A stretch of 34,523 bases of DNA, from contig JANLWV010000382.1 in NCBI GenBank assembly GCA_031364765.1, positions 1 through 34,523 of the forward strand, written 5' to 3'. The position numbers and the translations under genes were made by a program. Origin of the DNA: Vicinamibacteria bacterium. GTDB taxonomy: Bacteria; Acidobacteriota; Vicinamibacteria; Fen-336; JAGNNV01. Positions 4,479 through 31,908 of this stretch are shown piece by piece; position 1 is the first letter of the stretch; each line of letters opens with the position of its first letter. The notes beneath the pieces are model-generated. The model was not told where the DNA came from. It did not search any database and saw only the letters and a program-made list of their open reading frames with translations.

Positions 4479-4721
4479 TGAGTGCCCCGCTTGCCCCCGT
4501 TGACGCTAGAGGCCCAAATGGGGCCTGGGACGTGTTTTGCACATGGAAAGTCGCCTTTCGGCGCAGGTCGTGACGAAGCGTTTTGTAGATTCGACCGAAG
4601 TTTCCTGGCGCCTGAAGAGTGCTCCGGCGCTTGATCGCGGACTACGGCCTTCGGGAACCTCATCGCATCCTGGATGAAGACCGGGACGTTGTTTCCCGCG
4701 ATGGCCGAGTTCCCTCCGCGA

Positions 4722-5990
4722 TCAGAACGCAGGCCCCATCTTGAGGTGCAACTGTGTGCCCTCAACGCTGCGCATGACATCGATACGGAAACGGACCTTC
4801 CGATGCGACTTCAGGCGGATCCCGGCGCCGTAGCTTCGCTGCAGGTTATGGCGATCGAAATCGCTCGTGGCGGAGAACACCTTGCCGGTCTCGTAAATGA
4901 GCGCGAACTCGATCTTCGGCCACAACTCGAGGCGATATTCGGCGGCCAGGGCCAGGAGCTTATTGTCGCGGAACCGGGAGGAACTGTAACCCCGGAGAAG
5001 AGTGCCGCGACCCAGCGTGTGCTGCATGTAAAAAGGCACGCTGCTGCCCGCGTCCGGTTTGTCGAGCGACGCGATCTGGCGCAGCGCAACGACGTGCCGG
5101 TTCGAGCCGAGGGGCAGGTACTCGCGAGCGTCGACGGCGGTTCGGCTGAACTGGAAGGCGTTCCCATGACGGTCGTCAAAACGCGAAACCGCGACGCCGA
5201 GAGAGACGCCGCGATGGGGGTTGCCCGGCTCGTCGCGGAGCTCGAGCCAAGCGCCGCCGGACATGTGCAGGAAATCAGGAGACCGGAGGAGGCCCGGTGC
5301 AGTCCGTTCGTTGTTGGAGAGTTCGATGTTGGGGATGGCGGAGTCGAGCCCTGGGCCGATCGAGGTCCGGAGCACGCCGGCGCGGCCCATGACGGAGAGG
5401 CGCTTGACGCGGAAGCGAACGATGCCCTCGTAAAGACCGTCCTTCAGGCGGTAATCGCTGTGGCTCAAGCGCGAGGACGTGGGACCGAGTCCGTAGAAAT
5501 CCTCCCGCGGATAGTCGCGATATCGGGCGGACGCGTAGATGTTGAAGCCTGGCGGCGCCGCCGACGTCTTCTCGATGTCCGAGAGAGGGAACAGGGCGCT
5601 TGTGCCCGTCTCGACGCGGGGCAGGCGCTGGCCGTCGTGGGGAACGAGGCCCACCTGCAGGTCGTAGTACTGGTACCTGAATATGGAGTACGCAGCCGAC
5701 GCGTGGATGTCGATGGGCGAGCCGCCGATATCAGGCGTCCAGAAATGGAGCATCGGTGCTATTCCGCCGCCGGAACTCAAGATGTCGACCGCCGGCGAAA
5801 AGGGACCCCAGTGCGGGCCACGGCCCCCCTTGTCTTCATCATCGTTAAAGAATGACCGGATCGTCCGCTTCACGAGGCCAGGGCGCTCGACCTTCGGCTC
5901 GTCGTCTTTGTCTTTGGCGTCCTTGGCGAAGGAATCGGCTGGCATGAGTCCAGTCCACAAGGCGGCAAGCACGACAGCAGTTCGTGACAT
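4722..5990 (-). CDS. Omp85/BamA-TamA family beta-barrel lacking POTRA and passenger domains
   Basis: Signal peptide; LG(R)G..LRGY...RFRD loop-6 motif, AEYR, YETGKVF, SYGAGIR and C-terminal Phe. Confidence 0.8.
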   Translation of the reverse strand: MSRTAVVLAALWTGLMPADSFAKDAKDKDDEPKVERPGLVKRTIRSFFNDDEDKGGRGPHWGPFSPAVDILSSGGGIAPMLHFWTPDIGGSPIDIHASAAYSIFRYQYYDLQVGLVPHDGQRLPRVETGTSALFPLSDIEKTSAAPPGFNIYASARYRDYPREDFYGLGPTSSRLSHSDYRLKDGLYEGIVRFRVKRLSVMGRAGVLRTSIGPGLDSAIPNIELSNNERTAPGLLRSPDFLHMSGGAWLELRDEPGNPHRGVSLGVAVSRFDDRHGNAFQFSRTAVDAREYLPLGSNRHVVALRQIASLDKPDAGSSVPFYMQHTLGRGTLLRGYSSSRFRDNKLLALAAEYRLELWPKIEFALIYETGKVFSATSDFDRHNLQRSYGAGIRLKSHRKVRFRIDVMRSVEGTQLHLKMGPAF

Positions 5991-6074
5991 TTTCCGATAG
6001 TCTCCTTAAGCAGACGGGGACGCCCCAACCGGCGTGACGTCCGTAAACGGATGCGACCGTCTGACCAGTGGCTG

Positions 6075-6090
6075 AGCAACCCACGTGCCA
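6075..6090 (-). promoter_or_regulatory. sigma54 -24/-12 promoter
   Basis: TGGCACGTGGGTTGCT, upstream of the Omp85 gene. Confidence 0.85.
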
Positions 6091-6268
6091 GGGGGGCGAA
6101 CGCAGGCGCTTTTTTCGGGCCTATCTTCCTGCTTGAGGACCGTCTTAACCGCGAGGCCTAGCTTCAGTCTCCCATGACCCGGGCGTTCGCGGCTCCCCCG
6201 GGGCGGGGGCGGGCCGCCCCGCCCATGGCGGAATGTACAAAGAGCCGAGGTGGGCTCACGCCCGTTTG

Positions 6269-6284
6269 TGGCATACCCCTTGCT
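6269..6284 (+). promoter_or_regulatory. sigma54 -24/-12 promoter
   Basis: TGGCATACCCCTTGCT, upstream of the OmpA lipoprotein gene. Confidence 0.82.
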
Positions 6285-6360
6285 CAATTTCCGCGGACAG
6301 ACGTCTGCGGGGCGAACTTTCGTTCGTGGCCGCCATATGGACGTCTAGAGGAGATAAATC

Positions 6361-30302: not shown

Positions 30303-30347
30303 GGTTCCATCTCGATCACTGCGCTTCCTCTAGAACGCCGCCAAGGT

Positions 30348-31472
30348 CTAGACGGAGCAGCGTCGGTCGACGATCTGGGCCCGCTTCATCTTGAAGGCCT
30401 TGATCCAGTCATCCACTCGGGCGAGAGCAGGTTCCTTTTCGGGATCGCTGCTTGGGTCTGAGGAACGGCGCTTGACGCGTGCGTTCTCGAAGAGGTCGCG
30501 GAGCTGGGCGTCGGTGAGTTGCACGAGCAAACCGGCCAGAAACGCCCGGCCCGCCTCGCTGATCTCTGGGTTGCTGAGGCTGCCCGTGAACGAGCCCTTG
30601 AGCCGCGCCACGCACGCCTCGCCGTCTTTCCACACCGGGACCTGGGCCCAGGTATCCAGACTCACGCTGTTCTTGTTCTGGTTCAAAAGATCGGCGTGAC
30701 CGAACGTGAGGCCGAGATCGCTGATCATGAGGATGGGCGCCTTACAACCGGTTTTCCCAACCTCCTGTCCTTCGGGGCAAAGCAGGCGCTGATTCGAGGA
30801 TTTGTTGTCCGTGTGCTGCACGAACGCCGCCAACAATTTCAACGCGTCGCGTTGCGCGCGCGCGCTCTTGACGGCCTCGGGCCCGATGCCTTCGAGCTCC
30901 GACCATTTCCAGCCGGAATCTCTCTTCGTTTCCATGCTCCGCCCGGGCAGTTTCCGCTCGATGGCCGACGGGTCGAAGACCACCACGGACGCCGCTCCCT
31001 CCGGGCCCTTCTTCGGATCCGTTGGACAGCCGTGACACTTGACGCGCACCGGATACATCCGGTCGGCGGCAAAACCCAGAGCCCAGAAGAGTCGACTCGC
31101 CAATACCTCGCCAAAAACTTCGGCGTTGCGCGGGCCGTACTTGACCTTCACTTCCTTGCCGGGGCTGGTCTCACAGGTGAATTTGGGCGAGTGACCGGAT
31201 TGTTCCTTTTCCTTGTATTCGCAAGTCACCCACTCGTTGGACGTGAACGCACCGTCGACATCGGGCCCGGTCTTGAAGTTCACGTTGGGGACGTTCGTGG
31301 GCGACCAGACCGACGCGCGGCTGATGGCCTCCAGTCTCTCCTTTTCCGTCAGGGCTTCCCCCGGCGGCAGGGGCTTCACGTGGGCGCATCCGCCGAGGGT
31401 CAGGCCGAGCCCGAGGAGGACAGCCGCGCTGAGTTTGAGACTTTGGGGCTCTCGGGCGGCAACCGGGGTCAC
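30348..31472 (-). CDS. Kinase-like lipoprotein paralog A
   Basis: GTG at 31472 overlaps the upstream stop (GTGA). Lipobox LGGC, VKVKYG, AEVFGE, HTDNKSSN and DLG. Confidence 0.8.
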   Translation of the reverse strand: MTPVAAREPQSLKLSAAVLLGLGLTLGGCAHVKPLPPGEALTEKERLEAISRASVWSPTNVPNVNFKTGPDVDGAFTSNEWVTCEYKEKEQSGHSPKFTCETSPGKEVKVKYGPRNAEVFGEVLASRLFWALGFAADRMYPVRVKCHGCPTDPKKGPEGAASVVVFDPSAIERKLPGRSMETKRDSGWKWSELEGIGPEAVKSARAQRDALKLLAAFVQHTDNKSSNQRLLCPEGQEVGKTGCKAPILMISDLGLTFGHADLLNQNKNSVSLDTWAQVPVWKDGEACVARLKGSFTGSLSNPEISEAGRAFLAGLLVQLTDAQLRDLFENARVKRRSSDPSSDPEKEPALARVDDWIKAFKMKRAQIVDRRCSV

Positions 31473-31690
31473 GAGCGCTTGCCACTGCCGGCGAGAAGAA
31501 CTCCGCCCACGACCGCGACGACCACACCGGCCCACAACGGAACGTTCACCCGTTCCTTGTCCTTCACTTCAATCTCGATGGGTCCGAGTTTCACGTGGTC
31601 GGTGTCCTTGGTGTACGTGAACCCGCCGTAGGCCAGGGCCAGGATGCCCAGGGCCAGCAGGACCGCTCCGATGAGTTTTGTTCCTTGCAT
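31469..31690 (-). CDS. Small 2-TM membrane protein (DUF3185-like)
   Basis: LLALGILALAYGGFTYT...KLGPIEI...VPLWAG pattern. Confidence 0.8.
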   Translation of the reverse strand: MQGTKLIGAVLLALGILALAYGGFTYTKDTDHVKLGPIEIEVKDKERVNVPLWAGVVVAVVGGVLLAGSGKRS

Positions 31691-31722
31691 GTCTTGTCAT
31701 CTCACTTTCACCCCCGGGAGAG

Positions 31723-31738
31723 AGCAAAGGCCGTGCCG
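31723..31738 (-). promoter_or_regulatory. sigma54 -24/-12 promoter
   Basis: CGGCACGGCCTTTGCT, upstream of the small protein-kinase trio operon. Confidence 0.8.
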
Positions 31739-31908
31739 CCCGGTCGCGCCCGAATTCGCCACTTGGCGGGCCAGGAGGGCGATTCAAGCCGGGGGATTGA
31801 AGGCGGTTTCTACACGGTACAACGTCTGAAAAAGAAGCGTGACGTTTGGATGGCCCGTCGCCCCCTTTTGTCGAAGGTTGGCGGCCATGCCCACCCTTGA
31901 CCACCGGT

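What the first reader, a model, noticed from the sequence alone, without database searches (positions are those of the whole stretch)
4584..31814. Recurrent intergenic motif WWTCTACA: candidate enhancer (UAS) half-site
Seen: AATCTACA or TTTCTACA (either strand) at 4584-4591, 8875-8882, 13789-13796, 21028-21035, 23883-23890 and 31807-31814, plus a variant AATGTACA at 6232-6239. Each lies upstream of a sigma54 site, most at about 70-110 bp, and three lie near the middle of divergent pairs. The 13781-13796 copy, CGTGGA-ACAA-TCTACA, is a near-palindrome of TGT-N10-ACA geometry. Known: bEBP enhancers such as NifA TGT-N10-ACA act about 80-150 bp upstream. Inference: this is the binding site of the local bEBP, shared by divergent promoters.
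Basis: partly seen in the sequence, partly recalled or inferred. Interest (0 to 1): 0.72.

Follow-up and report, generated by a model that had tools for sequence, protein, structure and literature searches.

The report
Sigma-54 enhancer of a stress regulon
A short DNA motif recurs in front of sigma-54-type promoter sequences in this uncultured Acidobacterium and its relatives; it is likely the docking site of an uncharacterised activator protein encoded in the same stretch, which would switch on a set of predicted stress-protection genes, making it a new example of a well-known kind of switch.

Summary
The motif is real: 8 copies against 0.39 expected, 6 intergenic, and 6 of the genome's 19 non-coding copies lie in this contig. 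Around orthologues of the window's sigma-54 activator (12413-13753), TCTACA occurs 70 times upstream of sigma-54 sites against 4.6 expected. Of 40 copies picked by motif alone in genomes with the activator, 21 have a sigma-54 site 30-160 bp away; 0 of 20 do in three genomes without it, and 1.3% of random intergenic positions. The NarL-like rival occurs in only 8 of 41 genomes. The 13789 copy has no promoter within 170 bp. Predicted targets are general-stress-type genes. The activator belongs to an uncharacterised GSFTGA clade that includes the protein beside Ralstonia rpoN2. Binding is untested. The scan already noted GTAA-N3-TTAC versions and similar stress regulons on other DNA.

The parts
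4584..4596 (-). enhancer site (13-bp dyad register GGTCGA-A-TCTACA), 113 bp upstream of the sigma-54 site at 4463-4478
4463..4478 (-). sigma-54 -24/-12 site before the 3710-4450 gene (no Pfam or NCBIfam match)
6227..6239 (+). variant site (GGCGGA-A-TGTACA) between divergent promoters, 37 and 144 bp away
6075..6090 (-). sigma-54 site before the Omp85-domain gene
6269..6284 (+). sigma-54 site before the OmpA/glycine-zipper gene 6361-7044
8870..8882 (+). enhancer site centred between divergent promoters (79 and 80 bp)
8783..8798 (-). sigma-54 site before the M48 peptidase gene
8955..8970 (+). sigma-54-like site (G at -26) before the 52-aa gene 9070-9228 and the kinase-kinase-activator run behind it
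   Evidence: co-transcription inferred from gene spacing
12413..13753 (+). predicted cognate activator: receiver - sigma-54 AAA+ (GSFTGA loop) - Fis-type HTH (helix SLKTLYNRL)
13784..13796 (+). highest-scoring site (GGAACA-A-TCTACA); no promoter within 170 bp, 259 bp from the site before kaiC
13887..14018 (+). remnant of a HATPase_c (kinase-like) gene start, with an internal stop, lying between the 13790 site and the kaiC promoter
   Evidence: 76% identity over 38 aa to the N-terminus of a 354-aa HATPase_c protein in L111
14048..14063 (+). sigma-54 site before kaiC-kaiB-kaiB-kinase
21023..21035 (+). enhancer site 46 bp upstream of the promoter at 21074 (79-84 bp in three orthologous promoters)
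21074..21089 (+). sigma-54 site before the 468-aa glycine-zipper gene
23883..23895 (-). enhancer site between divergent genes (csbD-like and DUF4956-like)
23766..23781 (-). sigma-54 site before the csbD-like gene 23501-23680
23984..23999 (+). non-canonical sigma-54-like site (CG in place of GG), 96 bp from the 23889 site; the same variant recurs in relatives
31802..31814 (+). weaker enhancer site between divergent promoters (71 and 102 bp)
31723..31738 (-). sigma-54 site before the 73-aa membrane-protein gene 31469-31690
31909..31924 (+). sigma-54 site before the GlsB/YeaQ-like (Transgly_assoc) gene and the patatin gene

Best explanation
The motif recurs upstream of sigma-54 -24/-12 sites and is likely the upstream activator sequence of the receiver-type sigma-54 activator encoded at 12413-13753, which would switch on predicted general-stress genes. 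Shown by sequence: the site reads G-N-V-S-W-W-TCTACA-A-W, with one nearly invariant half (TCTACA) and a degenerate mirror half one base away (TGTAGA-N-TCTACA, GT-N7-AC core). It is single, occurs in either orientation, and sits a median 82 bp from the GG. Inferred: one of the neighbouring hybrid kinases phosphorylates the receiver; a dimer anchors on the strong half through its Fis-type HTH and nucleates the AAA+ ring; DNA looping brings the GSFTGA loop to sigma-54 RNA polymerase; a site placed midway serves two divergent promoters. The kinase-kinase-activator genes lie downstream of one such promoter, which would give positive feedback (inferred).
For: Enrichment in the window and genome. TCTACA 70 vs 4.6 expected in 135 promoter-upstream regions of orthologue loci, window excluded and HTH codons masked. 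0 motif-promoter pairs in the 20 loci of unrelated activators (<47.5% identity). 21 of 40 motif-only copies paired in activator-bearing genomes vs 40 of 3000 random intergenic positions and 0 of 20 in three genomes where the activator was not found. 84 matches in 24 genomes with the activator vs 11 in 17 without. Distant clade members with the same recognition helix carry GTAA/GTAG-N3-YTAC sites upstream of sigma-54 sites. It is the only one of the 9 G000 activators in the tree (10 in the genome) that falls in this clade. One rpoN is present. The activator gene itself follows a site-plus-promoter in L017, L058 and L059.
Against: No binding or expression data. 19 of 40 independent copies, and 40 of 124 non-coding sites in the locus set, have no sigma-54 site within 160 bp by my rules. 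G012, G013 and G028 (94-97% complete) have site-promoter pairs although no orthologue was found (fragment searches covered G012 and G028, not G013). G022, G031, G036, G078 and G087 have the activator but no match to the strict pattern. At class level the raw counts separate less: 70 in 17 genomes vs 74 in 54, with a looser pattern. TCTACA was also mildly raised near promoters in control loci (6 of 29 regions vs 1.2). Four sigma-54 sites in the window (19104, 19160, 19841, 23267) have no site within 160 bp. Related genomes are not independent.
Confidence: 0.82

Rival explanations
1. The site is read by the same activator but in a different register: an 18-bp dyad centred on the TA of the core (G-M-V-S-W-W-T-S-T-A-S-A-W-W-S-B-K-C), or in two overlapping registers 7 bp apart. 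This changes the geometry, not the regulator.
For: Among forced-symmetric models the TA-centred one fits best (log-likelihood 455 vs 319 for the 1-bp spacer, 175 for the NifA-like spacer; asymmetric 574). The right flank is enriched for G at +11 and C at +12 (27 of 50 each). TGTACA (8 vs 2.0) and TCTAGA (5 vs 1.8) variants occur, some with mirrored flanks; the window's 8871 and 6228 sites read well this way.
Against: A symmetric core predicts about 35 each of TGTACA and TCTAGA for 70 TCTACA; 8 and 5 were seen. Near-perfect TGTAGA-N-TCTACA sites exist (16 of 66). Distant members show GTAA-N3-TTAC. Forced-symmetric likelihoods penalise a dyad whose halves are unequal.
Confidence: 0.2
2. A different DNA-binding protein (a co-activator, architectural factor or repressor encoded elsewhere) binds the motif, while the activator binds another, undetected site.
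For: Site-promoter pairs in G012, G013, G028 without a detected orthologue; many promoter-less sites, several just ahead of hybrid-kinase genes; a single lopsided site is little for a hexameric activator (NorR needs three, PMC2831303).
Against: No second motif or tandem site was found; pairing vanishes in G047, G059 and G070, where the activator was not found; those three exceptions above are assemblies of 290-400 contigs.
Confidence: 0.1
3. The NarL/LuxR-type regulator at 19198-19830 binds the motif.
For: It lies in the island; in G017, G004 and G015 a site lies within about 270 bp of its 3' end.
Against: Found in 8 of 41 genomes only; not found in G021 (9 sites), G025 (8), G029 (7), G003 (5); G032 has it and no site. 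Sigma-54 promoters need an AAA+ activator (established knowledge).
Confidence: 0.03
4. Chance, codon pairs (TTC/ATC-TAC-A) or copied promoter cassettes explain the repeats.
For: TCTACA alone is as frequent in coding as in non-coding DNA genome-wide; the activator's own helix codons spell TCTACAA in most orthologues.
Against. The window's intergenic regions share only the motif and promoter words, no longer homology. This does explain the copies at 27251 (Phe-Tyr-Lys codons) and probably 19402 (not conserved in three orthologues).
Confidence: 0.02

Closest known systems
NorR enhancer sites of E. coli norVW, core GT-(N7)-AC (PMC2831303, passages read)
   Same: Same GT-N7-AC spacing, upstream of a sigma-54 promoter, read by a Fis-type HTH on an AAA+ activator.
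   Different: NorR is a GAF/NO sensor needing three sites and IHF; here the activator has a receiver domain, scores 289 bits on the NorR model (cut-off 476), sites are single and lopsided, and targets differ.
NifA UAS, TGT-N10-ACA
   Same: Enhancer position and the ACA end.
   Different: The N10 spacing is not supported; the protein is below the NifA cut-off (307 vs 529 bits); no nif genes among the window proteins scanned.
Ralstonia solanacearum Rsp1667/Rsp1668, GSFTGA activators beside rpoN2 (PMC4676750 Table 3 and PMC4371752, passages read)
   Same: A 57%-identical protein with GSFTGA and SLKTLYNRL lies beside the megaplasmid rpoN in strain YC40-M and falls in the same clade; a TGTAGAAA half-site lies upstream of that rpoN promoter and GTAA-N3-TTAC upstream of another. 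Identity with Rsp1667/1668 is inferred from synteny.
   Different: The paper gives them no name or function and no binding site; G000 has one rpoN, not in the window.
General stress regulons run by sigma-B, RpoS or EcfG (recalled)
   Same: Target families overlap: CsbD, BON/OsmY, GlsB/YeaQ, YtxH, DUF5670, DUF3309, SOD, DksA/TraR, CurA-like reductase; their stress role is recalled.
   Different: Here the promoters are sigma-54 type and would need an enhancer-bound activator.

Membership tests
bEBP upstream activator sequence of sigma-54 promoters | Lies upstream of a -24/-12 site at enhancer distance | tested here: met
   110 pairings, median 82 bp (quartiles 72-96) from dyad centre to GG (includes training sites); independent set 21 of 40 vs 1.3%
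bEBP upstream activator sequence of sigma-54 promoters | Occurs in either orientation | tested here: met
   53 same, 57 opposite
bEBP upstream activator sequence of sigma-54 promoters | Dyad symmetry fitting a dimeric HTH | tested here: inconclusive
   Mirror half at 1-bp spacer is enriched but degenerate; a second pseudo-dyad through the core has partial support
bEBP upstream activator sequence of sigma-54 promoters | A cognate activator with intact AAA+ motifs and HTH, and rpoN, in the genome | tested here: met
   Receiver, Sigma54_activat, HTH_8; Walker A/B and GSFTGA in sequence; rpoN on C167; pairing tracks the activator
bEBP upstream activator sequence of sigma-54 promoters | Direct binding and activation | not testable with these tools
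   No binding assay; no RNA run listed
NifA-type UAS (TGT-N10-ACA) | 16-bp dyad with 10-bp spacer | tested here: not met
   0 of 63 sites at 5/6 or better with that spacing; poorest symmetric fit
NorR-type enhancer | GT-N7-AC core | tested here: met
   G at -5 in 49 of 63, A at -3 in 38 of 63; 15 of 63 near-perfect
NorR-type enhancer | Three tandem sites and a GAF-domain NorR protein | tested here: not met
   No second site at any offset of 10-50 bp in 120 sites; receiver domain, below NorR cut-off
General stress regulon | Targets of known stress-protein families | tested here: met
   Pfam/NCBIfam matches of target families; the link of these families to stress is recalled
General stress regulon | Induction by multiple stresses or stationary phase | not testable with these tools
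   No expression data

The most novel reading that the evidence does not exclude
One uncharacterised clade of receiver-type sigma-54 activators (GSFTGA loop, SLKTLYNRL helix), spread over Acidobacteriota, Binatota, Eisenbacteria, Planctomycetota and Pseudomonadota, runs a general stress response through sigma-54 in place of sigma-B, RpoS or EcfG. It reads a GT-N7-AC code that appears as tandem GTAA-N3-TTAC in some lineages and as a single lopsided TCTACA site in Vicinamibacteria, where it fires divergent promoters from one site and also sits as a promoter-less operator ahead of its own kinases. This would also assign a role to the orphan rpoN2 locus of Ralstonia.
Probability: 0.45. Interest if true: 0.68.

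Novelty: new member of a known kind. Interest (0 to 1): 0.47.

Why it matters
It gives a predicted binding site and regulon to a widespread activator clade with no named function in the papers I searched. It points to a sigma-54-driven stress programme in common uncultured Acidobacteriota. A single lopsided site serving two promoters is a testable departure from the multi-site enhancers described for NorR. The kind of element is textbook, and the scan has reported kindred regulons elsewhere, so the gain is a new, well-constrained instance.

Tried and rejected
NifA-like N10 geometry: rejected. Tandem second sites: none at offsets 10-50 bp. IHF sites in the spacers: inconclusive (exact core 3 of 95 vs 0.16; one mismatch 12 of 95 vs 6.4, shuffle maximum 13; none in the 7 window spacers examined), though five HU/IHF-family genes exist. 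Helical phasing: nominal p about 1e-4 at 11 bp, but driven by the 79-83 bp peak and by related promoters, so not claimed. Copied promoter cassettes within the window: no longer homology. Bare TCTACA-gap-promoter genome patterns were too noisy from coding hits and served only as leads. Coding copies 19402 and 27251: no promoter within 170 bp, not treated as sites. Expression: no RNA holder listed; this is no evidence either way. Paraburkholderia sabiae locus L162 had no sigma-54 site by my fixed rule. Literature: nine full-text searches (listings and abstract starts seen) showed no paper describing this motif or regulon; PMC12316311 has no mention of Acidobacteria. Subscription papers, RegPrecise-type databases and supplements were not seen, so a prior description is not excluded. 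No structure or complex prediction was run. The tree is the quick search, without bootstrap.
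Full report
Setting. The window is contig C495 of a 3.84-Mb, 551-contig genome. Its closest relatives by the activator protein are titled Vicinamibacteria or Acidobacteriota. Pfam and NCBIfam show a cluster of small stress-type and signalling genes: a ferritin/Dps-like protein, OmpA, M48 peptidase, three hybrid kinases, a sigma-54 activator (12413-13753), KaiC and two KaiB, a NarL-like regulator, a CurA-like reductase, BON, CsbD, GlsB-like and patatin genes. No gene caller was installed, so I wrote a hexamer-based one; coding/non-coding labels rest on it.

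Observation. WWTCTACA occurs 8 times against 0.39 expected. Six copies are intergenic, two coding. Genome-wide there are 64 copies, 19 non-coding, 6 in this contig, where 0.18 would be expected. With a fixed consensus rule the window has 13 sigma-54 sites. Five of the six copies and the TGTACA variant have a site 37-144 bp away, four of them on both sides if the relaxed sites at 8955 and 23984 are counted. The 13789 copy has none within 170 bp; the next is at 14048 (259 bp), before kaiC, with the remnant of a kinase-like gene in between. In L050 the order activator, site, 92 bp, promoter, kaiC is unbroken, so the window's copy is probably the displaced enhancer of the kaiC promoter (inferred). 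The coding copies have no partner; 27251 is Phe-Tyr-Lys codons and 19402 is not conserved in three orthologues.

Independent tests. I fetched 101 loci around relatives of the activator, 87 after removing duplicates (plus). An unseeded k-mer count upstream of sigma-54 cores put TCTACAA first in loci at 70% identity or more (46 of 110 regions, 3.7 expected; this set included the window and the helix-codon artefact) and at 60-70% (24 of 66, 1.8 expected); it was weaker at 50-60% (7 of 39) and slight in control loci of unrelated activators (TCTACA 6 of 29 vs 1.2). With the window removed and helix codons masked, TCTACA occurred 70 times vs 4.6 in 135 regions. I then searched 41 genomes for GNVSWWTCTACAAW: 84 matches in the 24 genomes with the activator (21 with at least one), 11 in the 17 without (7 with at least one). 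From those 95 matches I took 40, all in activator-bearing genomes and mostly outside loci already held (my choice, not random): 21 had a sigma-54 site 30-160 bp away, against 40 of 3000 random intergenic positions. A class-wide search with a looser pattern separated less well (70 matches in 17 genomes, 74 in 54). But all 20 matches in three activator-less genomes with many matches (G059, G070, G047) lacked a partner (0 of 20). So the pairing, more than the word itself, tracks the activator. Against this: G012, G013 and G028 show pairs without a detected orthologue, and five genomes have the activator without a strict match. Kin are not independent, so the P values overstate.

Which protein. 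Sigma-54 promoters need an AAA+ activator (established knowledge; also PMC4641369, abstract start). The genome has ten such domains and one rpoN. In a quick tree of 94 rows, 66 form one branch (SH-aLRT 100, long stem) holding the window's protein; the eight other G000 activators included fall outside, and one fragment was left out. Members share GSFTGA (63 of 66) and, where the C-terminus was held, mostly the helix S(L/V)KTLYNRL. The NarL-like rival was found in 8 of 41 genomes and is missing from the richest ones.

Shape of the site. Sliding the mirror half against 63 sites from other genomes, the 1-bp spacer stands out (mean 2.90 of 6 matches vs 1.33; 15 sites at 5/6 or better), the NifA-like 4-bp spacer much less (1.87; none). 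The dyad TGTAGA-N-TCTACA has a GT-N7-AC core, the spacing reported for NorR (PMC2831303, passages). Distant clade members show GTAA-N3-TTAC or GTAG-N3-CTAC upstream of sigma-54 sites, sometimes in pairs 20-22 bp apart, which matches the scan's earlier notes e1-9578563 and e1-2306433; those notes are leads, not support. In the window the left half is weak (2-4 of 6). A second pseudo-dyad through the TA of the core has some support and is kept as a rival geometry. No tandem site was found in 120 Vicinamibacteria-type sites.

Regulon. In 63 loci, 124 non-coding sites gave 58 with one promoter, 26 with two and 40 with none; 5 coding and 3 edge sites were set aside; distance median 82 bp, 53 same and 57 opposite orientation (includes training sites). 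The commonest next genes were DUF5670 (12), GlsB-like (9), BON (7), CurA-like (5), YtxH (4), then Omp85-like, DksA/TraR, kinases, CsbD and the 52-aa protein (3 each), dnaK and the activator itself (2 each). That these families mark sigma-B, RpoS and EcfG stress regulons is recalled. In G000, 10 of 41 non-coding sigma-54-like sites had a motif score of 10 or more within 35-160 bp, 7 in this contig, the others before ytxH (C181), and genes on C331 and C333.

Mechanism. Shown: positions, enrichment, pairing, domain content. Inferred: phosphorylation by a neighbouring hybrid kinase, binding through the HTH to the strong half-site, ring assembly and looping, dual use by divergent promoters, positive feedback through the 8955 promoter. 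IHF involvement is inconclusive. Promoter-less sites ahead of kinase genes are unexplained and may be repressive.

Comparison and novelty. It works like a classical activator enhancer and meets the testable membership features; it is not a NifA or NorR site. The nearest named relatives are the GSFTGA activators beside Ralstonia rpoN2 (57% identity), listed without function in PMC4676750 (Table 3 passage); the rpoN2 promoter given in PMC4371752 (passage) has a TGTAGAAA half-site upstream in strain YC40-M. Nine literature searches showed no description of the motif or regulon; subscription papers, regulon databases and supplements were not seen. Verdict: real, a new member of a known kind, assignment to the local activator about 0.82, interest 0.47.

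Noticed in passing
3' end of activator orthologues, e.g. L001, L036, L016, L041, L042; window 13717-13733: The codons of the recognition helix (KTLYN) spell TCTACAA in most orthologues (TTTACAA in the window). In L036, L016, L041 and L042 a sigma-54 site follows 55-94 bp later with no intergenic copy, so the coding copy might serve as an intragenic enhancer; more likely coincidence. It was masked in my counts.
   Followed up: partly
window 23984-23999; L001, L022, L028, L030, L038: A recurring sigma-54-like site with CG in place of the -24 GG, at enhancer distance from the motif.
   Followed up: partly
L002:2987, L006:940, L028:6720, L029:6559, L051:6545, L061:3029, L099:5543, L103:1883: Eight promoter-less sites lie directly after a small target gene and ahead of a hybrid-kinase gene; possible roadblock or repressor sites giving negative feedback. 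The window has no site at the matching 9228-9254 junction.
   Followed up: partly
window 13140-13175 (activator residues about 243-254): The window's subclade has a one-residue deletion just after Walker B (DEVTEAMEIQ against DEITEMPLELQ), shared by about 15 close orthologues.
   Followed up: no
window 21035-21074: The site-to-promoter spacer is about 35 bp shorter than in L001, L004 and L006, and lacks the IHF-like word seen there.
   Followed up: partly
window 19841-19856 and 23252-23267: Good sigma-54 sites before the curA-like and BON genes lack the motif here, whereas relatives have it at these families (5 and 7 pairings); local loss through rearrangement is likely.
   Followed up: partly
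window 19090-19174: Two back-to-back sigma-54-like sites, 56 bp apart, between the receiver-Hpt gene and the NarL-like gene, with no room for an enhancer.
   Followed up: no
window 14179-18316: kaiC, two kaiB and a hybrid kinase, without kaiA, behind a sigma-54 site; in L050 the activator, a site at 92 bp, the promoter and kaiC are directly adjacent.
   Followed up: partly
window 28057-31535: Three tandem paralogues of about 370-395 aa with no Pfam match, downstream of the 31738 promoter.
   Followed up: no
window 25680-26165: The PLD-domain protein ends in a long K/A/E-rich repeat tail.
   Followed up: no
L073:6525, L075:2360: dnaK is a predicted target in two relatives, and groES/groEL and SOD recur in the islands.
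   Followed up: no
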